In this document: in pieces, positions 6,520 to 64,000 of the stretch
Position numbering within the stretch: position 1 is the stretch's first letter
Layout of the letters: every line of letters starts with the position of its first letter
Origin: Alphaproteobacteria bacterium
GTDB taxonomy: Bacteria > Pseudomonadota > Alphaproteobacteria > DATDPM01
Assembly (NCBI GenBank): GCA_041498815.1
Contig: JBGQJC010000001.1
Coordinates: forward strand, 49,773 to 113,772
Direction of reading: 5' to 3'
DNA length: 64,000 nt
Program-made: the position numbers and the translations under genes
Notes under the pieces: model-generated
What the model saw: the letters and a program-made list of their open reading frames with translations, nothing else
The model's database searches: none
What the model was told of the DNA's origin: nothing

Positions 6520-6655
6520 GCCTCGGGAGGCTAGGCAAGACTCCGGGGCGGCGACAAATCACGACTGCGATACCATGGCCCTCCTCCGCCGTCCGGCAAC
6601 TATTTGAGCGGCCCAGGATGGACGGGTATTCGCGCGCCGGGCTAGAACACCCCTG

Positions 6656-6745
6656 GATGGGTGGCCGAGCGGTTTAAGGTACCGGTCTTGAAAACCGGAA
6701 AACCCGCAAGGGTTTCGTGGGTTCGAATCCCACCCCATCCGCCAG
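6656..6745 (+). tRNA. tRNA-Ser (anticodon UGA), 90 nt with long variable arm and encoded CCA
   Basis: Acceptor stem ggatggg/cccatcc, anticodon loop cuUGAaa, a long extra arm and the T-arm ggttcgaatcc. Confidence 0.9.
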
Positions 6746-6976
6746 TTATACCGCAACCCGTTGATCTTCCAGCAAGCTGCTGATCCAGCAAACTTTTTTG
6801 TTCCTGGTTGTTACACCAACCTGTTACACCGGGAGCATGAAAGACATGAGCAAACATCCCCGATTGGTGGCCCGTGGTCGCCGCTATTATTTCCGCGCCA
6901 AAATCCCTGCCGATCTCGTTGAGCATGTGCCCCTAACCAGCGAGGGTAGCCCTTTTGGACGGTTGGGACGGATCGG

Positions 6977-7927
6977 GTGTCAACGAAATCGACGCCAGCA
7001 CGTTCCAAATCGTCGAAACTGGCCAGATCATTCGGAAGATCAGCTAGCGGTATCTTCGTGAAATGGACATATCCATGCGCGTTCACATGCGCGCCAGTAT
7101 CGAGTTCGTTGGCGAGCGGAGACGTGGAGGGAACGGCGGTGTGGAAGAGGATTGTGCGGGCGATTCGCGACGCACTCGTTTCGCCAGCACACGATGACGA
7201 GTACATTTCGCGAGAGTTATTTCACTTCGTTGGGCGTACGCATCCGGACAACGACGAAGCCAATTACGGGATTCTGTCAAAGATAATTTCGTCGCGAACG
7301 GTATCGCATCCGCCTCACAACAGCGACTGGGGCAAAATTAGCTATACGATCACTTCGACGGGCGGATTACTCGAAGGGACGCTCATTGAGCCGACGATTA
7401 CATGCTACAGCGATATCCCGTTGCGCAGCCTGCGAATCCATATTGAGAAATACGGCAAATTTGGTCTTTCATTTCATCGCGAGCCTTTGATTTTTCATGG
7501 CGCTAGGCCCGTCACTTATGTGCCGGTCGATTATGGGCCGGGCAATGTTCACGACTCTCCAGCGCAGGGGCGGTATTTAATCGCAGGCTTCGAGGCAGCA
7601 TATCGTGGCTTTATACGTCACATTTATGATAATGAAGCTCGGGCTGTGAGATCAAGCGTTATTGGCAAAGTGGCCGAAAATCGCGCTCAAACAGTTGAGG
7701 CCGTCAAACGCATCTTTGAGAAAGATTTTCTGGCTTTCATAAAAACGTATGATGACCGACTCCCGAAGGATCATCCAAACAACTACTACATGGAACGTGA
7801 GTGGCGGAAACTCGGGAACTTCCAGTTTACGCCGGATCAAGTAATCAGGGTGGTTGTTCCTTCTGCCTATCAAAACCAGATCGCTCGCGCGTTTCCGAAC
7901 TATGTAGATAAAATCTACACGATCTAG
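6977..7927 (+). CDS. hypothetical protein, sole cargo of the low-GC islet at tRNA-Ser (start uncertain; GTG at 7139 possible)
   Basis: The ORF is markedly AT-richer than its flanks from about 7180 to 7930. It has no ATG inside until residue 270. The C-terminal block is NYYMEREWRKLGNFQF. No family could be assigned confidently. Confidence 0.6.
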   Translation: MSTKSTPARSKSSKLARSFGRSASGIFVKWTYPCAFTCAPVSSSLASGDVEGTAVWKRIVRAIRDALVSPAHDDEYISRELFHFVGRTHPDNDEANYGILSKIISSRTVSHPPHNSDWGKISYTITSTGGLLEGTLIEPTITCYSDIPLRSLRIHIEKYGKFGLSFHREPLIFHGARPVTYVPVDYGPGNVHDSPAQGRYLIAGFEAAYRGFIRHIYDNEARAVRSSVIGKVAENRAQTVEAVKRIFEKDFLAFIKTYDDRLPKDHPNNYYMEREWRKLGNFQFTPDQVIRVVVPSAYQNQIARAFPNYVDKIYTI

Positions 7928-55641: not shown

Positions 55642-55772
55642 GAGATTGGCCGGCTAAGGCGGCGCGGATTTTATTATCCAGGCACCGAACGCTTGCGCCG
55701 AGGCCGCCGTGGCATGGGCGGGCAAGGGCGGGTATATTCGGGCGGCCCGGTATCGCGAAATCAGGAGAAGCC

Positions 55773-56135
55773 ATGACGCGCTTTCGTTTCCTGTGGATCG
55801 CTTTCGTTCTCGCGGGCTGCTACCCCGGTCCCGAAAATCCGCCCGATTACGGGCCTTATCCCGACGGTTACGAGTCCATCGTCACGACCTGGATCCAGGG
55901 GCATGTCTTCAACGCGCCGACCGTCAAGGATGTTTCGATGACCAAGCCGGTCCAGGACCAGCTTTGGGTCGGCAAGCTTTATGGCGGCTTCGCTTACGGA
56001 TACAAGACCTGCCTTTCTTACGACGTTCAGGATCGCGACGGCCGTTACAAGGGCATCGCGCAATACACCGTGCTTTTGAAAGACGGCGCCGTCGCCCACG
56101 CCGGCGTTTACGATCTCGTCAACGAGGGGTGTTAG
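55773..56135 (+). CDS. lipoprotein whose 3' end is the source of a direct-repeat family
   Basis: Lipobox VLAGC. The C-terminus ...AGVYDLVNEGC is encoded by the repeat core. Confidence 0.7.
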   Translation: MTRFRFLWIAFVLAGCYPGPENPPDYGPYPDGYESIVTTWIQGHVFNAPTVKDVSMTKPVQDQLWVGKLYGGFAYGYKTCLSYDVQDRDGRYKGIAQYTVLLKDGAVAHAGVYDLVNEGC

Positions 56136-56140
56136 GGGGG
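56101..56140 (+). repeat. direct repeat copy A (core GGCGTTTACGATCTCGTCAACGAGGGGTGTTAGGG, gene 3' end plus stop)
   Basis: The same core recurs at 57608-57643, 59260-59294 and 60991-61018. Confidence 0.8.
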
Positions 56141-56188
56141 GCGCGGCAAAAAGCGCGCGCCTCGCCCCGTAGAAGGAAGGAGAATATC

Positions 56189-56470
56189 ATGACCCTCCCA
56201 ACAGTTAAGGCGGCGAGCGGCTTGATCAATATCGTGGCCTTAGGGTGGGCTCTTTCGGCGGCGCTTGTCGTCTTGTATGTAATTTGTGCGCTGGCCGGGA
56301 TGATATTTCCGGAGGCCCCGCTCACCCACGGATGGTTGAGTCTCTTCTCAACCGCACCGCTCGGTACCCTGAAGAGCTTCGTCGACGGCATCGTTGGCAG
56401 TATCGGGTTTGCCTGGGTGACGGCCTTTGTTCTTGGGTTGGTATACAATCGCCTCGCCTCGCGCGGATGA
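56189..56470 (+). CDS. small membrane protein (93 aa, hypothetical)
   Basis: Shine-Dalgarno gaaggaaggag and 2-3 TM helices. It is the first gene after repeat copy A. Confidence 0.5.
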   Translation: MTLPTVKAASGLINIVALGWALSAALVVLYVICALAGMIFPEAPLTHGWLSLFSTAPLGTLKSFVDGIVGSIGFAWVTAFVLGLVYNRLASRG

Positions 56471-56643
56471 CAGAAAAACGGCGTTCAGCCAAAGTTTCCG
56501 CCCGAACCCGTCCACCTTCCTGGCGGCGTGGTGGCCGCCGCCATGCCGTTCGATGAGGACTCGGGCCGAGCGGTAATGTCACGGTCGTGCGGCCGGCCGC
56601 ATGGGCGCGATACGATCGACGCCGAAGTGGAGGAACGCGGGGC

Positions 56644-56868
56644 ATGAATGATCGATCCCAAACGCCCTGGTGGCGCACCAAGGCCGGGCTCGTATTCTGC
56701 GGCTTCCTGGCGGTCGCGGGCTTCTTCCTGATCACCGAGCACACCGCGCATGTCTTCGGTGCTTTGCCCTATCTGCTCCTTGCCGCATGTCCTTTGATGC
56801 ACCTCTTCATGCACCACGGGCACAGCGGCCGCCATCACGGCGGCGATGACGAGCATCGGCCGCGATGA
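56644..56868 (+). CDS. DUF2933 family small protein (His/Cys-rich metal-binding-like)
   Basis: A TM helix plus CPLMHLFMHHGHSGRHHGGDDEH. Confidence 0.6.
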   Translation: MNDRSQTPWWRTKAGLVFCGFLAVAGFFLITEHTAHVFGALPYLLLAACPLMHLFMHHGHSGRHHGGDDEHRPR

Positions 56869-57497
56869 ACGGTACGCCGGCCTATGGCCTGTGGTCGCTC
56901 GCCGCCATCAATTCGGCCGTGTTCATCATCTTTGCGTACAGCTTTACGAAGCCGCGGACGAACAGGGACTGGCGCTCGTTCGGCGCGTTCAGCGCCTTCA
57001 TCGTCGCGCTCTTTTCGGAGATGTACGGCTTTCCGTTGACGATTTACTTCCTCTCCGGTTGGCTGCAGAGCCGTTATCCTCAGGTCGATTGGTTTTCGCA
57101 CGACGCCGGCCACCTATTGGAGGAACTATTCGGCTGGAACGTTAATCCGCACTTCGGGCCATTCCATATCCTGAGCTTCATCTTCATCGGGGGTGGCTTC
57201 ATCTTGCTTGCGGCGGCGTGGCGCGTTCTCTATGACGCGCAGCGGCAGCATCGTCTCGCGGTAGCCGGCCCGTACGCATATGCGCGGCACCCGCAATATG
57301 TGGGCTTTGTCGCCATCATGTTCGGGTTCCTCCTGCAATGGCCGACGATCCTCACATTGGCGATGTTCCCGCTGCTGGTGTTCATGTACGTGCGCTTGGC
57401 GGTCGCCGAAGAGCATGACGCGCGGCGCGAATTCGGCGAGGCCTACGAGCGGTACGCCGCGGTAACACCACGGTGGGTGCCGCGCCTCGGCGGATAA
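56865..57497 (+). CDS. ICMT/PEMT-like membrane methyltransferase family protein
   Basis: GPYAYARHPQYVG plus a C-terminal EE..L...FGE.Y block. Its start overlaps the DUF2933 stop (ATGA). Confidence 0.75.
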   Translation: MNGTPAYGLWSLAAINSAVFIIFAYSFTKPRTNRDWRSFGAFSAFIVALFSEMYGFPLTIYFLSGWLQSRYPQVDWFSHDAGHLLEELFGWNVNPHFGPFHILSFIFIGGGFILLAAAWRVLYDAQRQHRLAVAGPYAYARHPQYVGFVAIMFGFLLQWPTILTLAMFPLLVFMYVRLAVAEEHDARREFGEAYERYAAVTPRWVPRLGG

Positions 57498-57563
57498 TGC
57501 TCGGCTTACAGCGGCATCCCGTCAAAAATTTTCATTGGGTCATGGGCTTCGCGGCGACCGCGG

Positions 57564-57655
57564 GGGCAATACACCGTGCTATTGAAGGACGGCGCCGTCG
57601 CTAGAGCCGGCGTTTACGATCTCGTCAACGAGGGATGTTGAGGGGGCGCGGCAAC
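57564..57655 (+). repeat. direct repeat copy B (about 90 bp duplicate of the lipoprotein gene 3' end, including stop)
   Basis: About 90% identical to 56061-56150. It encodes ...AIEGRRRR.AGVYDLVNEGC stop. Confidence 0.8.
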
Positions 57656-57795
57656 CGCTGGGCTTAAGAAACTCCGCTCTACAATCCTGTTGCCGACGAT
57701 ATTACCTATCACTTTAGTCCATTCGCGGCCGGGGCCGGCGGGTGGTCAACCGCACCGTCCAGAACGCCGAGCGCCCGGCCATAAGGGAGGCGGCC

Positions 57796-58230
57796 ATGCA
57801 TGTGGCGCAGATACTGAAGGCCAAGGGAGACCGCGTTGAAACCGTCGGCGAGACGGTGAGTATTGCCAAGGTGTCGCAAATGCTTCGGGAAAAGCGGATC
57901 GGTGCCGTGGTCGTCACCGGCGGCGATGGAGCCGTGTCCGGCATCCTCTCCGAGAAGGAAATCGTCCATGGTCTCGCCGCTTACGGGACCGCCCTGCTCG
58001 GAATGACGGCGGCGCAGATCATGAATCGGGAGGTCGTAACCTGCACGCCCGAATCCCGTGTCGAGGAGCTGATGCGCGAGATGACGACGCGCCGCGCCCG
58101 GCATCTGCCGGTCATCCATCAAGGCGCGCTCGCCGGCATCGTCAGCATCGGCGACGTCGTCAAGTGGCGGCTCGACGAACTCCAGTCCGAGGCCCAAAGC
58201 TTGCGGGATTACGTGACCGGATCGCGCTGA
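57796..58230 (+). CDS. CBS domain pair protein (alternative start at 57742)
   Basis: Shine-Dalgarno aagggagg. Tandem CBS motifs (IGAVVVTGGDGAVSGILSEKE ... HLPVIHQGALAGIVSIGD). Confidence 0.7.
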   Translation: MHVAQILKAKGDRVETVGETVSIAKVSQMLREKRIGAVVVTGGDGAVSGILSEKEIVHGLAAYGTALLGMTAAQIMNREVVTCTPESRVEELMREMTTRRARHLPVIHQGALAGIVSIGDVVKWRLDELQSEAQSLRDYVTGSR

Positions 58231-58339
58231 CGTAAACGCGGCGGTTTAGGCGATGCGGGTTTTTGGCGCGGATTCCGGGACGGAGGCGAGGTGGCGGGCC
58301 CGAAGACCCGCCACTTCGTTGAGCTTCAAGTCTTGCGCG

Positions 58340-58621
58340 TCACTTCGTCGGCGCCGGCGCCGGCGCCGGTGCGCACGCCTTTAGCGTCGTGGAGTACACC
58401 ATGCCCGTCGGGCAAGTCGGTGTTGGCGCCGTAGTAGTAGGAGCGGGAGCAGCAGTAGGAGGGGGGGCGGGCACGCATGCTTTTTTGGTCGCGTCCCACA
58501 CCAAGAGCGGGGGGCACGCAGGAACAGGAGCGGCTTTAGTCTGAGCGTATGCGGCCATCGGAGCCGAGACAGCGAGCAGAAGGCCAGCAAGAGCTGCGCC
58601 TGTAATGATTTTAAACAACAT
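58340..58621 (-). CDS. small secreted Pro/Ala/Thr-rich protein with four Cys
   Basis: A signal peptide, then APVPACPPLL..KKACVPAPPP...CPTGMVYSTTLKACAPAPAP. Confidence 0.45.
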   Translation of the reverse strand: MLFKIITGAALAGLLLAVSAPMAAYAQTKAAPVPACPPLLVWDATKKACVPAPPPTAAPAPTTTAPTPTCPTGMVYSTTLKACAPAPAPAPTK

Positions 58622-58884
58622 CTGGAACTCCTTTTTTTGACTTACTTAGTCGCCATGCGATAATTGTATTACATTTATCATTTGTCACAAAGATTCCTCG
58701 ACGGTGACCCGAGACCCTCGTTTTCCTCCAGATTTGAGTAGAGTCCGTGACTCCAGGAAGGAGACGGACGAGGCGTAAGTCGAGGTTCACGCTGACATGC
58801 CGCGACCGGTAGACGATGGCGGCTTTCGGTCCGGAAGCGGAAGCTCGCGCGCTGCTGTCAGTCCGGATTTATGGGTTCACGGAT

Positions 58885-59187
58885 TCAGCGCCGCCGATTT
58901 ACGTTGTTTTTCCATTCGCGCCGGCCCCTGCGGATGAGCCGGACAATCCAGCGCTTGAGCGGCGGCACGTCGTCGGCCAGAAGCAGAAGGCCCAAGGGAA
59001 TCATCCAAATTCCGAGAACGGGCAGGAATCCGAAAATCCCGCCAATAATGAAAACGACGGCGGCCGGCAGGCGCACCCATCGGCCGGCGGGCGCGCGCAG
59101 CCAATGCACGGCGCCGCGCAGCCGCACCGGCAACGTATCGATCATGTGCCGGATATAGCGCTCGCGGCGCTCGTGACTCGGGCTCAT
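58885..59187 (-). CDS. PGPGW/YbaN-like small membrane protein
   Basis: A basic N-terminus, then IIGGIFGFLPVLGIWMIPLGLLLLADDVP. Confidence 0.45.
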   Translation of the reverse strand: MSPSHERRERYIRHMIDTLPVRLRGAVHWLRAPAGRWVRLPAAVVFIIGGIFGFLPVLGIWMIPLGLLLLADDVPPLKRWIVRLIRRGRREWKNNVNRRR

Positions 59188-59257
59188 GGCGACATCCGCG
59201 GGCGATCATGCAATTGCATGGTTTCGGTGTCAGGAGATTCAAAATCGAATGGTGAGC

Positions 59258-59296
59258 CTGGCGTCTACGATCTCGTCAACGAGGGGTGTTAGGGCG
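59258..59296 (+). repeat. direct repeat copy C
   Basis: ggcgtctacgatctcgtcaacgaggggtgttaggg. Confidence 0.8.
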
Positions 59297-59315
59297 GCGG
59301 GCAACGGCGGGTAAT

Positions 59316-59690
59316 TTAACGACAACTCTCGATGTTGCCTCCCCGGTCTGCACCGCAAGCGGAGTTGCCAAAGACGGTGTTGTTATTGATCGTTGCGGAG
59401 GCGCAATCGGTTACTTCGACACTCCAGTACTGGCTGGTACCATTTCCGAGGTCTCTCCTGCACAGCGCTCTGGCGTATACTGCTCCTTCTTGCTGCTGGT
59501 TCGGAACAACCCCTTTTTGCGGCACGAGAGATAGGCGAAGGATATTCTTGTCCAGCACACTGTCGTCCCGAAGTGTGATCTCTGTCGAATTTTTCAGGAG
59601 AGCGAGTCGCGCCTGATCATTCGAGTCAAGGTTGCACCCGGTGAGAGACAAGACCATAAAGAGAACACCGAAGCATTGAGTCTTTATCAT
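59316..59690 (-). CDS. lipoprotein (hypothetical), AT-richer
   Basis: Lipobox LSLTGC and four Cys. Confidence 0.55.
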   Translation of the reverse strand: MIKTQCFGVLFMVLSLTGCNLDSNDQARLALLKNSTEITLRDDSVLDKNILRLSLVPQKGVVPNQQQEGAVYARALCRRDLGNGTSQYWSVEVTDCASATINNNTVFGNSACGADRGGNIESCR

Positions 59691-59763
59691 TTTTATCCTC
59701 GCTTTTTTGCCGTGTTCTGATTTGCCAGGAGAGGACTATTCTTGCCCAATTGGAGGCCAGTAA

Positions 59764-59913
59764 CATGTCCCGCCATGAAATCGTGTTGGGCAGGAAAAGC
59801 AAACCGCTATGGAGTGCCGCTCGGTCAGTCGCCCCGAGCGCATGGGATTTAGGCCGGTATTCCACTGGGGCGCACAAGGTCCCGAGGACGTCGAAATCGT
59901 GGATTACCACTGA
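59764..59913 (+). pseudogene. 5'-truncated higB-like toxin remnant (only the C-terminal ~25-50 codons retained)
   Basis: A frame ending in TGA at 59911-13 reads ...MGFRPVFHWGAQGPEDVEIVDYH, which is the characteristic HigB/RelE-family C-terminus. A stop lies at 59761 and no room remains for the N-terminal two thirds. Confidence 0.45.
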
Positions 59914-59938
59914 CGGTTTCTTGTCGAGGACAACAGCC

Positions 59939-60232
59939 ATGCCAAGCCCCAAGCCCATCCACCCCGGTGTCGTTCTCAAAGAGGACGTGATGGACGAGCT
60001 CAAGCTCAGTGCCAACGCCTTGGCGCTGGAGCTGCACGTACCCGCGAACAGGATCACCGGGATCGTCAATGGCGAGCGCGCCATCACGCTGGAGACGGCG
60101 CTGCGATTGGAGCGCTATCTCGGCGCCTCGGCCGACTTCTGGCTGAACCTTCAGAGCCGGTACGAATTGGAGGCCGCTTCGGGGCTGCGCCGGCGCGTGA
60201 AGCGCGAGGTCCGGCCGCGGAAGATGGCTTGA
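59939..60232 (+). CDS. higA: HigA-family antitoxin (XRE-type HTH)
   Basis: MPSPKPIHPGVVLKEDVMDELKLSANALALELHVPANRITGIVNGERAITLETALRLERYLGASADFWLNLQSRYELE. Confidence 0.8.
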   Translation: MPSPKPIHPGVVLKEDVMDELKLSANALALELHVPANRITGIVNGERAITLETALRLERYLGASADFWLNLQSRYELEAASGLRRRVKREVRPRKMA

Positions 60233-60366
60233 GAGGCGCGGGACGGAGGCGCGGGCCAAAAGAGAGCGATCTCTATTAGGGCGATTCTTGAACGGAGGCG
60301 CGGGCGAAAGTAGGCCGTGGCGATTAAGGTGGCACAGATTGTGGGGATGCCTGAAATTTCACGCTC

Positions 60367-60843
60367 TTAGAATTGCCTTTGTGCAAGGCCTTTCCTTATG
60401 CGTTTAAGGCGGCGCGTTTGCTCACTTTGAATCTTCTTCAGCACCTTCGTGAGATCAGCGTCACGATGGAACTGCCCGCTTACTGAATTCCCAGGAGGAC
60501 GTGCGACACGCAGCAGTATGGACTCGATGTCCTTGAGATAACGAACTCGACCCACGCGGAAGATCGCGAAGCTGTCCCATTTGGCCCGGTGTTTGTTCTT
60601 TGTATGACCCAGGAGTCTCCAATACAGGTTTTTCGCTAGGCCGACGTAGTAGAGGGTTTTACGCCTGTAGAGAAGATAAATGCCTGAATACCCCCGCGTG
60701 ATTTCTTCAAGTCCGTGTTTGAAGGTTGGTTCGTAAAGAAGATCGATCGGAAGCCGCGCCGATACGCCCTTCACCAAGGCGCCCTTGCTCGAACCTTTCT
60801 TGATCTTGCGGTGCGTACGGAATCGTTGCCGTTTCTTTGGCAT
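60367..60843 (-). CDS. GIY-YIG nuclease family protein
   Basis: GIYLLYRRKTLYYVGLAKNLYWRLLGH (GIY ... YVG ... R) with a basic N-terminus. AT-richer. Confidence 0.7.
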   Translation of the reverse strand: MPKKRQRFRTHRKIKKGSSKGALVKGVSARLPIDLLYEPTFKHGLEEITRGYSGIYLLYRRKTLYYVGLAKNLYWRLLGHTKNKHRAKWDSFAIFRVGRVRYLKDIESILLRVARPPGNSVSGQFHRDADLTKVLKKIQSEQTRRLKRIRKGLAQRQF

Positions 60844-60989
60844 AGGCACCCACTGAAGAGGTCTAACTTCGGCCCCGTGATATTGTAACGATGCGGCAAG
60901 CGTTGGGCTAGTCCAGCATACTACGGTGGGCGAGCGCTTGGTCCGTTTTGGACGCCGCCACGAGCCGGAAAGATTTGGCGCCATAGCTC

Positions 60990-61018
60990 GCGCCGGCGTC
61001 TATGATCTCGTCAACGAG
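60990..61018 (+). repeat. direct repeat copy D (shortest; 28 bp core) fused to the start of the next gene
   Basis: gccggcgtctatgatctcgtcaacgagg followed immediately by tacgaATG. Confidence 0.7.
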
Positions 61019-61024
61019 GTACGA

Positions 61025-61309
61025 ATGAAGACTTTGATCTACATCCTTGCCGTGACTGTATTGGTTGGCTGTGCAGGGGGTCCCGTTGGTTGGGGGGGCA
61101 CTGATGAGGTGCTTTTTTCCGACAAGGATACGATTAAGATTCAATGGGACAACACGGTAACTAGTGAAGACGCCGTACGTCAGAAGGCGATAGCTCACTG
61201 TGCAAGGACGAACCGCGGGGCTCAAGTCGTTGATGCAACGTCTGACCCATTTACCTTTGGGTTGATTCAATCGAAGACATGGAAATGCACTGAGTTGCAC
61301 GCTAACTAA
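61025..61309 (+). CDS. lipoprotein (hypothetical, 94 aa)
   Basis: Lipobox LVGCAG. Its Shine-Dalgarno is supplied by the repeat core (GAGG). Confidence 0.55.
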   Translation: MKTLIYILAVTVLVGCAGGPVGWGGTDEVLFSDKDTIKIQWDNTVTSEDAVRQKAIAHCARTNRGAQVVDATSDPFTFGLIQSKTWKCTELHAN

Positions 61310-61339
61310 CCGACCAAACGGCCGCTAAAATAGAAGATT

Positions 61340-61393
61340 TGGTGAGCCCGGAAGAAGTCGAGCCCGCGGCCCTCTGATTAAAAGTCAGATGCT
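61340..61393 (-). repeat. partial duplicate of the tRNA-Lys 3' two-thirds (att-like)
   Basis: tggtgagccc plus a diverged T-arm plus ggccctctgattaaaagtcagatgct, matching 61926-61979 of the intact gene. Confidence 0.7.
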
Positions 61394-61894
61394 TTAGTGT
61401 GCCAATACCTTGGCGATGCAGAAAGCTCCTGCGATGAAAAAACCAAACGACGCAAACGCAAAAATGATCATTGCAATAGCAGTGCCTCTCGTAGCGTGTG
61501 CTAACCAGTTAAGTGGCTTGAGTTTGTCAGCGTCCGTCGAAACCTCGGCGAGAGCACGCACGTTTTTAAACGTGACGAAGCTTTGATGGAAATAAGCCAC
61601 GAGGCCTGCAAAACCAGCAAGAATTACACCCCATAAGAACGGGCGCATGCCTTGTAGGACTTGCGACAATACATTTTCTTTCCCGGCTTTGTCCCAAAGC
61701 TGACCTACGAATGCGAGCAGCGCAATGACTGCGCCTGCATTGAGCACTACGGCTGTGCGTAGGGCGACTAGGCCGATCTCGCCAGCCATGCGGTCACTAT
61801 GTAACTGGGACTCAAATCGGGCCTGCCAGTGTTGCTCCTGGCGGCGGAGAGTGGCTCGATAACGCTCAAGTTCTTTTTCTTCGTCGAGTGTCAC
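61394..61894 (-). CDS. membrane protein (hypothetical), AT-richer, between the partial and intact tRNA-Lys
   Basis: 166 aa with three C-terminal TM helices. Confidence 0.5.
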   Translation of the reverse strand: MTLDEEKELERYRATLRRQEQHWQARFESQLHSDRMAGEIGLVALRTAVVLNAGAVIALLAFVGQLWDKAGKENVLSQVLQGMRPFLWGVILAGFAGLVAYFHQSFVTFKNVRALAEVSTDADKLKPLNWLAHATRGTAIAMIIFAFASFGFFIAGAFCIAKVLAH

Positions 61895-61925
61895 CGATAA
61901 TCCACGCGGCTAGTGATTAGCGCTT

Positions 61926-62000
61926 TGGTGAGCCCGCCGGGGATCGAACCCGGGGCCCTCTGATTAAAAGTCAGATGCTCTACCGCTGAGCTACGGGCTC
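61926..62000 (-). tRNA. tRNA-Lys (anticodon UUU), 75 nt with encoded CCA
   Basis: The reverse complement gives the acceptor GAGCCCG/CGGGCTC, the D-arm GCTCAGCGGTAGAGC, the anticodon loop CTTTTAA and the T-arm CCGGGTTCGATCCCCGG. Confidence 0.9.
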
Positions 62001-62979: not shown

Positions 62980-63512
62980 ACCGCCTTGGGCTGTTTGGCG
63001 GAGGGGGTTTCCTCGCGGCCGAAGCGGCGCATCAAATGATTGGCGACGCGGGGACTGACGAATTGGGAGACGTCGCCGCCCAAGCGCGCGACCTCCTTCA
63101 CCAGCTTGGCGGAGATGAACTGGTGCTTGTCGGAGGCCATGAGGAACACGGTTTCGATCTCCGGGTCCATGCGGGCGTTCATGCCGGCCATCTGGAATTC
63201 GAATTCGAAATCGGAAACCGCGCGCAGGCCCCGGATGACCACCGACGCGCCCATGTCGGCGGCGAAGGAGACGAGGAGCGTGTCGAAGCGGTGCACCTCC
63301 ACGGTTTTTCCATTGGAGTAGGCCCCGAACGCGAGCTCGTCCTGGATCATCTGGACGCGCTCTTCGACCTCGAAGAAGGGCGATTTGCCGTCGGAGACCG
63401 CGACCGCGACGATCAGGCGGTCGACGATGTGGGTGGCGCGCCGGATGATGTCGAGGTGGCCGTAGGTGACGGGATCGAAGGTGCCGGGATAGATGCCGGT
63501 CGGTTTCGTCAT
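62976..63512 (-). CDS. coaD: phosphopantetheine adenylyltransferase
   Basis: GIYPGTFDPVTYGHLDII (the HxGH-type nucleotidyltransferase motif). Confidence 0.9.
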   Translation of the reverse strand: MTKPTGIYPGTFDPVTYGHLDIIRRATHIVDRLIVAVAVSDGKSPFFEVEERVQMIQDELAFGAYSNGKTVEVHRFDTLLVSFAADMGASVVIRGLRAVSDFEFEFQMAGMNARMDPEIETVFLMASDKHQFISAKLVKEVARLGGDVSQFVSPRVANHLMRRFGREETPSAKQPKAV

Positions 63513-64000
63513 TCGCTCCCTTCCCTTCCGCCTTCGCCCGATGGCTTGCGCGGACCGGCGCCGTTTTCGCCCGGGCCGGTTCCGCCATTCGGCCCGGCTT
63601 CGTTTTCCGGCCCGTTGTTTTCGCCCAAACCGCCTTCCGTCCGGTTGTTTTCGTCCGGGCCGGTTTCCGTCCCGGTGCTTTCGCCCAAACCGGTTTCCGT
63701 CCCGGTGCCGTTGCCGGGGGTGCCGTTTTCGGGCTCGGCTTCAACCGGATCGCCTTCATCGGCAAGACGGGTGACGGAGACCACGCGCTCGGCCTCGGCG
63801 ACCTTGAACAGGATCACGCCCTGGGTCTGGCGGCGCGCGATGCGGATGTCGTGCACCGGGCAGCGGATGATCTGGCCGCCGTCCGTCACCAGCATGACCT
63901 GATCCTTGGCCGCCACCGGAAAGGCCGCGACCACCGGGCCGGTGCGGTTGGTGAGCTCCATGTTGGCGATGCCCTTCCCGCCGCGATTGGTGATCCGGTA
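63509..64000 (-). CDS. gyrA: DNA gyrase subunit A, C-terminal end (gene continues beyond the 3' edge of the window)
   Basis: GyrA C-terminal beta-pinwheel blade (QVMLVTDGGQIIRCPVHDIRIARRQTQGVILFKV) followed by an acidic Gly/Glu/Thr-rich tail. ATGA overlap with coaD. Confidence 0.85.
   Translation of the reverse strand, partial: YRITNRGGKGIANMELTNRTGPVVAAFPVAAKDQVMLVTDGGQIIRCPVHDIRIARRQTQGVILFKVAEAERVVSVTRLADEGDPVEAEPENGTPGNGTGTETGLGESTGTETGPDENNRTEGGLGENNGPENEAGPNGGTGPGENGAGPRKPSGEGGREGSE
63540..63730. repeat. imperfect tandem repeats encoding the low-complexity acidic GyrA tail
   Basis: Reiterated ccggtttccgtcccggtgc / ttttcgcccaaaccg units. Confidence 0.5.

What the first reader, a model, noticed from the sequence alone, without database searches (positions are those of the whole stretch)
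56061..61030. Four direct repeats of a lipoprotein gene's 3' end partition about 5 kb into a tandem cassette array
The last ~35 nt of the lipoprotein gene at 55773-56135 (GGCGTTTACGATCTCGTCAACGAGGGGTGTTAGGG, encoding GVYDLVNEGC-stop) recur at 57608, 59260 and 60991, with spacings of about 1.5, 1.65 and 1.73 kb. Copy B even retains about 90 bp of upstream coding sequence. Each interval carries one to three small genes with their own Shine-Dalgarno: (1) membrane protein, DUF2933 and ICMT-like methyltransferase; (2) CBS protein, Pro-rich secreted protein and PGPGW-like protein; (3) lipoprotein, higB remnant with higA, and GIY-YIG nuclease. Copy D is fused directly to the ATG of a fourth lipoprotein gene. 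The region is AT-richer than the chromosome and ends at tRNA-Lys. Reiterated duplication of a target gene's 3' end is the signature of serial site-specific integration (tandem accretion) at one attB, yet no integrase, transposase or attC-like inverted repeat is present. Either the recombinase acts in trans, or this is a novel integron-like cassette platform using a coding-sequence att.
Basis: seen in the sequence. Interest (0 to 1): 0.72.

Follow-up and report, generated by a model that had tools for sequence, protein, structure and literature searches.

The report
Integration scars behind a lipoprotein gene
The repeated gene-end copies are real and most likely mark old insertions of foreign DNA at two adjacent insertion sites, a lipoprotein gene end and a tRNA-Lys gene, which is a known kind of genomic scar rather than a new gene-capture system.

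Summary
The lipoprotein gene's 3' end (55773-56135) occurs four times in direct orientation: A 56060-56149, B 57566-57654, C 59260-59304 and D 60977-61019. None is expected by chance, and the core is not repeated elsewhere in public data. A 59-nt tRNA-Lys 3' fragment lies at 61338-61396, and a 9-nt remnant abuts copy C; that remnant is about 60 nt long in a sister strain. An independent species (L007/L008) also carries a 57-nt copy of its own gene end, after a single hemerythrin gene. Those two strains diverge completely just past that copy. Copies A, B and C end at the same nucleotide (GGCAA), with different DNA beyond. This favours site-specific insertion at a fixed attachment site, followed by decay. 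Known analogues are integrase-less arrays: cis-mobilizable elements (CIMEs) and Dehalococcoides ssrA islands. The array is not dynamic near the gene, because cassettes 1 and 2 are present wherever the six sister-strain contigs reach. Only gene conversion (A from B) and short-homology deletion are directly visible. No recombinase and no attP-bearing element was found. An integron-like platform is not supported. Interest is moderate.

The parts
55773..56135 (+). Target gene: a 120-aa lipoprotein of a very small family. Its C-terminus AHAGVYDLVNEGC is conserved.
   Evidence: ORF. Only 7 homologue clusters among 5.8 billion proteins. C-terminal alignment.
56060..56149 (+). Repeat A: the native, translated 3' end of the gene plus about 15 nt after the stop, ending ...GGCAA.
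   Evidence: (D1, D3)
56150..57565 (+). Cassette 1: DUF5676 (56189-56470), DUF2933 (56644-56868) and a PEMT/ICMT-like methyltransferase (56865-57497).
   Evidence: Pfam. Present in all six sister-strain contigs. The nearest hit below the 98%-identical cluster is 81% identical, in a huge family.
57566..57654 (+). Repeat B: 90 nt, 90% identical to A. It reads QYTVLLKDGAVARAGVYDLVNEGC*, and most of its differences from A are synonymous.
   Evidence: (D3)
57655..59249 (.). Cassette 2: CBS protein (57742-58230, +), Pro-rich secreted protein (58340-58621, -) and a 100-aa membrane protein (58885-59187, -). Segment 58288-58878 is replaced by a 51-nt tandem repeat in sister strain L009.
59250..59258 (+). 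TGGTGAGCC: a 9-nt remnant of a tRNA-Lys 3' fragment, which is about 60 nt long at the same position in L009. It is fused to repeat C at a GAGCC(C)GGCG short homology.
59260..59304 (+). Repeat C: GVYDLVNEGC*, plus about 12 nt ending GGCAA.
59305..60976 (.). Cassette 3: 124-aa lipoprotein (59316-59690, -), higB C-terminal remnant (about 59800-59913, +), higA (59939-60232, +), a partial 51-nt repeat unit (60244-60269) and a GIY-YIG nuclease (60367-60846, -).
   Evidence: The higB'-higA segment is 78.6% identical to the segment that sits next to a tRNA-Lys 3' fragment in L078.
60977..61019 (+). Repeat D: GAIARAGVYDLVNE. It is truncated on the right at GAGG.
   Evidence: (D1)
61025..61309 (+). A 94-aa lipoprotein gene that is unrelated to the target lipoprotein.
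61338..61396 (+). Diverged direct copy of the 3' 59 nt of tRNA-Lys, that is, an attachment scar of a tRNA-Lys-targeted insertion.
   Evidence: D4, 85%
61394..61894 (-). A 166-aa membrane protein, the only gene of the islet between the tRNA fragment and tRNA-Lys.
61926..62000 (-). tRNA-Lys(UUU). Its 3' end faces the array and forms the second insertion target.

Best explanation
The 5.8 kb between the lipoprotein gene and tRNA-Lys is a double insertion hotspot. It is bracketed by two convergent targets, the last 45-90 nt of the lipoprotein gene and the 3' half of tRNA-Lys.

Inferred mechanism: integrative elements (phage-, ICE- or IME-like) with site-specific integrases inserted repeatedly. Each element that used the lipoprotein site carried its own copy of the gene end. 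The gene therefore stayed intact (copy A), and a displaced copy was left on the far side (B, C, D). The elements then lost their integrase and most of their content, leaving small integrase-less gene sets that resemble cis-mobilizable elements (CIMEs).

Shown directly: the four copies; the tRNA-Lys scars; a second species with the same kind of duplication; breakpoints that coincide with the repeat's right edge; gene conversion between A and B; and a short-homology fusion that created junction C.

Inferred only: that a dedicated recombinase made the insertions, and the order of events.
For: 1. There are four direct copies where none is expected, and the core is not a dispersed repeat. Scans of genome, metagenome and viral collections gave only single hits. 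Apart from orthologous gene ends (L039, L057), these are in unrelated organisms.

2. Copy A preserves the full reading frame with the family's conserved C-terminus. B, C and D still read as the same peptide and differ mostly at synonymous positions, so they come from functional alleles rather than in-place decay.

3. Copies A, B and C end at the same nucleotide (...GGCAA), and three unrelated sequences follow. The orthologous gene in L078 shares the block up to GGCA and then differs too.

4. The pattern recurs independently. In L007/L008 (lipoprotein 72% identical) a 57-nt copy of that gene's own end follows a single hemerythrin gene. The two strains diverge completely right after ...GGGGTGT(T/C)AGGG. 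The DNA beyond the copy in L007 contains a truncated terminase-like fragment (phrog_38, E = 9e-4).

5. D and the L007 copy begin within 3 nt of each other, at GACGGCGCC or GGCGCC. No homology extends further upstream.

6. A classic tRNA scar lies next door: a 59-nt fragment at 61338-61396 against tRNA-Lys at 61926-62000. L078 has the same type of scar around an asnB islet.

7. Integrase-less islands bounded by copies of a target gene's 3' end are documented (PMC5704250, PMC3146451).
Against: No integrase or other recombinase was found. tblastn with XerD, lambda Int and Hin found none in the 64-kb window or in the loci held at that point. The Pfam annotation of the genes called on the fetched neighbourhoods of related loci also lists none. 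Pfam, PHROGs and NCBIfam scans of the cassette genes gave none either.

No attP-bearing phage, plasmid or element carries the core.

The cassettes are very small (0.6-1.7 kb) and consist of intact genes, with no recombinase pseudogene debris. That is tidy for random decay.

Cassettes 1 and 2 are present wherever the six sister-strain contigs (95-96.5% identity) reach, so the gene-proximal part is old and static.

The one strain difference in this species (window versus L009) has its breakpoint at the tRNA fragment and short homology, not inside the core.

The excess of invariant codons in the last 9 codons is not significant (7/8 versus 37/69, p = 0.07).
Confidence: 0.55

Rival explanations
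1. No dedicated recombinase is involved. Pieces of the same locus from related bacteria, running from the lipoprotein 3' end through variable genes to the tRNA-Lys 3' end, entered by transformation, transduction or as circles. They were added by single-crossover homologous recombination or by homology-facilitated illegitimate recombination, then trimmed by short-homology deletions.
For: Two units have this exact shape. Copy B is followed by genes and then a tRNA-Lys fragment (about 60 nt in L009). Copy D is followed by the 94-aa lipoprotein gene and then the tRNA-Lys fragment at 61338-61396. Junction C is a join at GAGCC(C)GGCG, which is typical of short-homology recombination. Gene conversion from B to A in L009 and L076 shows that host homologous recombination acts on these copies. 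The lipoprotein family is tiny, so donors must be close relatives. No recombinase was found.
Against: This model does not explain why A, B and C share exactly the same right boundary with unrelated DNA beyond. It also does not explain why an independent species shows a duplication with nearly the same left boundary as D, and a strain breakpoint exactly at the copy's right edge. Campbell-type insertion through only 45-90 nt of roughly 90% homology is inefficient, yet it would have had to recur several times at one gene end.
Confidence: 0.2
2. This is an active cassette platform. A recombinase encoded elsewhere in the genome recognises the 45-60-nt gene-end sequence and captures or excises small integrase-less cassettes. 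It would be functionally analogous to an integron, or to XerCD-dependent dif modules.
For: The cassettes are small and made of whole genes. One is a single-gene, 0.6-kb hemerythrin cassette in L007. The right boundary is sharp and shared. The pattern recurs in two species. No integrase lies in cis in any of the loci examined.
Against: The gene-proximal cassettes are present in every sister-strain contig that reaches them. Genes lie on both strands, several preceded by their own ribosome-binding sequences (seen in the sequence). There is no attC-like structure or extended inverted repeat at the copies. The cargo shows no sign of recent transfer: the next hit to the cassette-1 methyltransferase below the 98%-identical cluster is 81% identical. 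Most orthologous loci carry no duplication (L003-L006, L078, L079).
Confidence: 0.12
3. The partial copies are silent donor cassettes that vary the lipoprotein's C-terminus by gene conversion, as in pilS/pilE-type antigenic variation.
For: In L009 and L076 the expressed gene carries the B-type variant (GCT AGA GCC, His to Arg), which indicates gene conversion from B.
Against: The copies encode almost the same peptide, with 0-2 amino-acid differences. There are only three of them, they are separated by unrelated genes, and they are short. This gives no meaningful diversity.
Confidence: 0.03
4. Assembly artefact or chance similarity.
For: Metagenome contigs break at the repeats.
Against: The same order is recovered in a JGI contig, Logan contigs and two NCBI MAGs. 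Contig L074 spans cassette 1, B and cassette 2 without a break. Shuffles give 0 expected matches.
Confidence: 0.02

Closest known systems
Tandem accretion of ICEs, IMEs and cis-mobilizable elements (CIMEs) at the 3' end of a protein gene. Example: ICESt1/CIME at fda in Streptococcus thermophilus, reviewed in PMC5704250.
   Same: Direct copies of the target gene's 3' end delimit adjacent elements. The gene stays intact. The decayed members have lost their integration and transfer genes but keep the flanking copies.
   Different: Here no intact partner element or integrase is known in any strain. The units are much smaller (0.6-1.7 kb). The target, a small lipoprotein gene, is new. Whether the flanking copies are still functional is untested.
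Dehalococcoides ssrA genomic-island arrays (PMC3146451).
   Same: Multiple tandem islands lie downstream of one target. Each is bounded by a short direct repeat of the target's 3' end. Fifteen of those islands lack an integration module and were proposed to be cis-mobilizable or fixed.
   Different: In Dehalococcoides 16 islands carry a serine integrase (DsiB), and island number varies between strains. Here no integrase is present and the proximal part is fixed.
tRNA-gene-targeted genomic islands.
   Same: The islet at 61338-62000 has the canonical signature: an intact tRNA-Lys at one end and a direct copy of its 3' part at the other.
   Different: There is no integrase and only one 166-aa gene is left. 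This signature explains only part of the array, not the lipoprotein-end copies.
Integrons (IntI, attI, attC cassettes).
   Same: A row of small gene cassettes separated by a recurring sequence next to a fixed chromosomal point.
   Different: No IntI gene was found. The recurring sequence is a direct copy of coding DNA rather than an imperfect palindrome. Genes lie on both strands and are not promoterless. No cassette turnover was seen near the gene.
XerCD-dependent elements (IMEX, and pdif modules of Acinetobacter plasmids); comparison from general knowledge.
   Same: Integrase-less modules moved by a host recombinase acting in trans on short flanking sites.
   Different: By inspection, the core shows no 11-6-11 dif-like architecture. 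The site lies in a gene end next to gyrA/coaD rather than at a dif site. This was not formally tested.

Membership tests
Tandem accretion / CIME-type array at a gene 3' end | Each unit is flanked by direct repeats derived from the 3' end of the target gene. | tested here: met
   Four copies share a common 16-25-nt block. A second example exists in L007/L008.
Tandem accretion / CIME-type array at a gene 3' end | The target gene remains intact after insertion. | tested here: met
   Copy A completes a 120-aa ORF whose C-terminus matches that of all family members.
Tandem accretion / CIME-type array at a gene 3' end | The units lack integration and transfer genes. | tested here: met
   No recombinase was found by Pfam, PHROGs or NCBIfam among the cassette ORFs, or by tblastn across the window.
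Tandem accretion / CIME-type array at a gene 3' end | A related integrase-bearing element with an attP copy of the core exists. | tested here: not met
   None was found in viral contigs, plasmids, the genome or metagenome scans, or the neighbourhoods of relatives. Coverage of this clade in those collections is thin, so this is a weak negative.
Tandem accretion / CIME-type array at a gene 3' end | Strain-to-strain differences have breakpoints at the repeats. | tested here: inconclusive
   This holds for L007 versus L008, which diverge right after copy 2. For the window versus L009 the breakpoint is at the tRNA fragment next to copy C. The proximal cassettes are invariant.
Tandem accretion / CIME-type array at a gene 3' end | The flanking copies are recombined by a site-specific recombinase, giving excision circles. 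| not testable with these tools
   This needs PCR, read-level analysis or recombination assays.
Integron | An IntI tyrosine recombinase gene lies next to the array. | tested here: not met
Integron | attC sites are imperfect inverted repeats that fold as single strands. | tested here: not met
   The repeats are direct copies of coding sequence. The repeat scan lists no extended inverted repeat at the copies. By reading the sequence, the only palindromic stretches inside the unit are about 12 nt (GACGGCGCCGTC, CTCGTCAACGAG), and the second is not conserved in L007.
Integron | Promoterless cassettes lie in one orientation, read from a common promoter. | tested here: not met
   Genes lie on both strands.
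tRNA-targeted genomic island | An intact tRNA gene lies at one end and a direct repeat of its 3' part at the other. | tested here: met
   61926-62000 against 61338-61396. Also an L009 fragment and the L078 asnB islet.
tRNA-targeted genomic island | An integrase gene lies next to the tRNA. | tested here: not met
   Only a 166-aa membrane protein lies there.

The most novel reading that the evidence does not exclude
The last 45-60 nt of this lipoprotein gene is the attachment site of an unidentified recombinase that acts in trans. It captures very small, integrase-less gene cassettes in at least two species. This would be a chromosomal cassette array that works like an integron but uses a coding-sequence site and direct repeats.
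Probability: 0.12. Interest if true: 0.75.

Novelty: new member of a known kind. Interest (0 to 1): 0.4.

Why it matters
The locus adds a previously undescribed chromosomal insertion target, the 3' end of a small lipoprotein gene, lying back to back with a tRNA-Lys target. It shows how two neighbouring targets produce an interleaved record of attachment scars, which later gene conversion and short-homology deletion then reshape. For annotation, recognising such scars explains why metagenome contigs of this clade break here. It also explains why the genes between the lipoprotein and tRNA-Lys differ from species to species. If a recombinase acting on the site were found, the very small cassettes would become more interesting.

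Tried and rejected
- **REP-like dispersed repeat: rejected.** The window has only four copies. Scans of genome, metagenome and viral collections returned only single hits. Apart from orthologous gene ends (L039, L057), these lie in unrelated organisms.
- **Decayed full-length paralogues: rejected.** tblastn and local alignment find no lipoprotein-like sequence upstream of B, C or D.
- **tRNA-Lys fragments in front of B and D: not found**.
- **RNA motif or terminator role for the repeat: no support.** Rfam returned only tRNA-Lys, and the terminator-like scan did not exceed shuffles.
- **Phage or plasmid attP: not found**.
- **Nucleotide-level constraint on the last 9 codons: suggestive only.** 7/8 invariant versus 37/69, p = 0.07.
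- **The adjacent GIY-YIG nuclease as the agent: set aside.** It belongs to a roughly 150-aa family that is 65-87% identical across very different taxa. It is probably a mobile gene itself, but homing would not create direct duplications, and the other copies have no such gene.
- **Silent cassettes for antigenic variation: rejected.** There is essentially no diversity among the copies.
- **More strain variants by exact-protein look-ups:** these mostly returned the same strain or contigs ending at the repeats.

Full report
**Observation.** The 3' end of the 120-aa lipoprotein gene (55773-56135, +) is present four times in direct orientation.
The 19-nt core TAYGATCTCGTCAACGAGG matches at 56109, 57615, 59266 and 61001. 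No match is expected in shuffled sequence.
- The extents are A 56060-56149, B 57566-57654 (90 nt, 90% identical), C 59260-59304 and D 60977-61019.
- B reads QYTVLLKDGAVARAGVYDLVNEGC*, C reads GVYDLVNEGC* and D reads GAIARAGVYDLVNE. Most differences from A are synonymous. The copies therefore derive from functional alleles, not from a duplicate decaying in place.
- No lipoprotein-like sequence lies upstream of B, C or D.
The exceptions are that the GIY-YIG gene starts at 60846, so D is intergenic, and that 'PGPGW-like' was not confirmed.
- Only the distal part (59-62 kb) is clearly AT-richer.

**Not an artefact, not a dispersed repeat.**
- The same order is found in a JGI contig. A Logan contig spans cassette 1, B and cassette 2. 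Two NCBI MAGs also contain it.
- Exact scans for the core gave 22 single hits in 185,579 species genomes, 37 single hits in metagenome contigs and 1 in viral contigs. The only related loci among them are orthologous gene ends (L039, L057).

- tRNA-Lys(UUU) at 61926-62000 (-) points its 3' end at the array. A diverged copy of its 3' 59 nt lies at 61338-61396 (D4). This is the classic signature of an insertion into a tRNA gene, and here only one 166-aa gene remains.
- The 9 nt just left of copy C (TGGTGAGCC, 59250-59258) are the start of another tRNA-Lys 3' fragment.
- In sister strain L009 (GCA_041496925.1) the sequence is identical up to that point. It then continues for about 60 nt as a tRNA-Lys-like fragment, followed by unrelated DNA.
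- The fragment (GGTGAGCCCGGCGGGGATCG) and the Arg-type gene-end copy (GCTAGAGCCGGCGTCTACGATC) share GAGCC(C)GGCG. Junction C is therefore best read as a short-homology deletion or fusion, not a site-specific event.

**Comparative context.**
- The lipoprotein family is tiny, with only 7 clusters.
- In relatives the gene lies in the same neighbourhood (tRNA-Lys, coaD, gyrA), but the genes between it and tRNA-Lys differ.
  - L003 has DUF8292, DUF2127 and a 311-aa gene.
  - L078/L039 has a 152-aa gene, a higB remnant and higA. A tRNA-Lys fragment, an asnB islet carrying a tRNA-Ser, and the intact tRNA-Lys follow.
- The higB'-higA segment of L078 is 78.6% identical to window 59859-60238, about the same as the lipoprotein gene itself (78.3%). 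So higB'-higA next to tRNA-Lys is probably ancestral.
- Within the species, cassettes 1 and 2 are conserved.
  - All six sister-strain contigs (95-96.5% identity) carry cassette 1.
  - Where the contigs reach, they also carry B, the CBS gene and the 100-aa gene.
- Variation lies distally and in a 590-nt replacement (58288-58878), which is a 51-nt tandem repeat in L009.
- In L009 and L076 the expressed gene end carries B-type bases (GCT AGA GCC). This is gene conversion between copies.

**Evidence for a defined insertion site.**
- Copies A, B and C end at the same nucleotide (...GGCAA), and each is followed by unrelated DNA. L078 shares the block to GGCA and then differs.
- A second species, L007/L008 (lipoprotein 72% identical), has a 57-nt copy of its own gene end (DGAVAHAGVYDVVNAGC*, 93% and 89% identical) after a single hemerythrin gene.
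  - L007 and L008 become unrelated immediately after ...GGGGTGT(T/C)AGGG.
  - The L007-specific DNA holds a truncated terminase-like fragment, which is weak evidence (phrog_38, E = 9e-4).
- That copy and copy D start within 3 nt of each other.
- Recurrence in two lineages, coincident boundaries and a breakpoint at the repeat edge are hard to obtain from random illegitimate events. They fit insertion at a fixed attachment site.

**Evidence that limits the claim.**
- No recombinase was found in the window. None was found in the loci screened by tblastn or in the Pfam tables of the neighbourhoods fetched from relatives.
- No attP-bearing element was found.
- Conservation of synonymous sites in the last nine codons is only suggestive (p = 0.07).
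- The cassette-1 cargo shows no recent transfer: the next hit to its methyltransferase below the 98%-identical cluster is 81% identical.
- The recombination that can actually be seen is homologous (gene conversion) or short-homology.

**Interpretation.**
- Most likely (about 0.55), this is a double insertion hotspot in which elements with site-specific integrases inserted repeatedly.
  - Insertions went into the lipoprotein gene end and into tRNA-Lys.
  - The elements then lost their integrases, and ordinary recombination reshaped what remained.
- This matches described integrase-less arrays: cis-mobilizable elements formed by accretion (PMC5704250), and the ssrA island arrays of Dehalococcoides, 15 of whose islands lack an integration module (PMC3146451).
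- Rivals and their weights:
  - Stacking of locus fragments from relatives by homologous or illegitimate recombination: 0.2.
  - An active cassette platform driven by a recombinase acting in trans: 0.12.
  - Silent donor cassettes: 0.03.
  - Artefact: 0.02.
- An integron-type classification fails all three defining features tested.

**Verdict.** The feature is real and reproducible. It is a new member of a known kind, and interest is moderate (0.4).

Noticed in passing
L009:5214-5325; window 60244-60269 and 58271-58287: A 51-nt unit (CGGAGGCGCGGGCCAAAAGAAAGCG...TTTTAAG) is tandemly repeated 2.2 times after the CBS gene in L009. A partial unit follows higA in the window, and its first ~13 nt follow the CBS gene in the window. 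It was found nowhere else in the window or in the loci held at that point. It may mark a further recombination point inside the array.
   Followed up: partly
window 60367-60846 (-): The GIY-YIG nuclease belongs to a family of about 150 aa that is 65-87% identical across very different taxa, including hits named Methanosarcinaceae archaeon and Gammaproteobacteria. Most hits sit on short contigs. This looks like a highly mobile selfish gene.
   Followed up: partly
window 6655-7927: tRNA-Ser(UGA) at 6655-6744 is followed by a low-GC stretch (GC 0.51) that encodes an AbiGi-like protein (6977-7927). This is probably another small tRNA-associated islet.
   Followed up: partly
L078:1960-4269: In the relative L078, the islet inserted in tRNA-Lys carries an asparagine synthase gene and a tRNA-Ser. 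That tRNA-Ser is 93% identical to the window's tRNA-Ser at 6655-6744.
   Followed up: partly
window 59800-59913; L078:1565-1650: The same truncated higB C-terminal remnant (...GAQGPEDVEIVDYH*) precedes higA in both the window and L078, and homology begins at the same point. The truncation therefore predates the split of the two species, and the upstream neighbour gene was later replaced.
   Followed up: partly
window 63560-63710: Three or more 30-nt tandem repeats lie inside a minus-strand ORF (63509-63961). They encode a repetitive Gly/Thr/Glu-rich stretch, apparently the tail of the gyrA-like gene.
   Followed up: no
window 61338-61396: In the tRNA-Lys fragment the anticodon-arm part is almost identical to the gene, but the T-arm part has 7 changes in 16 nt and could not pair. 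This uneven divergence suggests a mixed origin rather than uniform decay.
   Followed up: no
window 55717-55734 and 59296-59313: An 18-nt match with 17 identical positions (GGCGGGCAAGGGCGGGTA versus GGCGGGCAACGGCGGGTA) links the region just upstream of the lipoprotein gene to the DNA just after copy C. It could be chance in GC-rich sequence.
   Followed up: no
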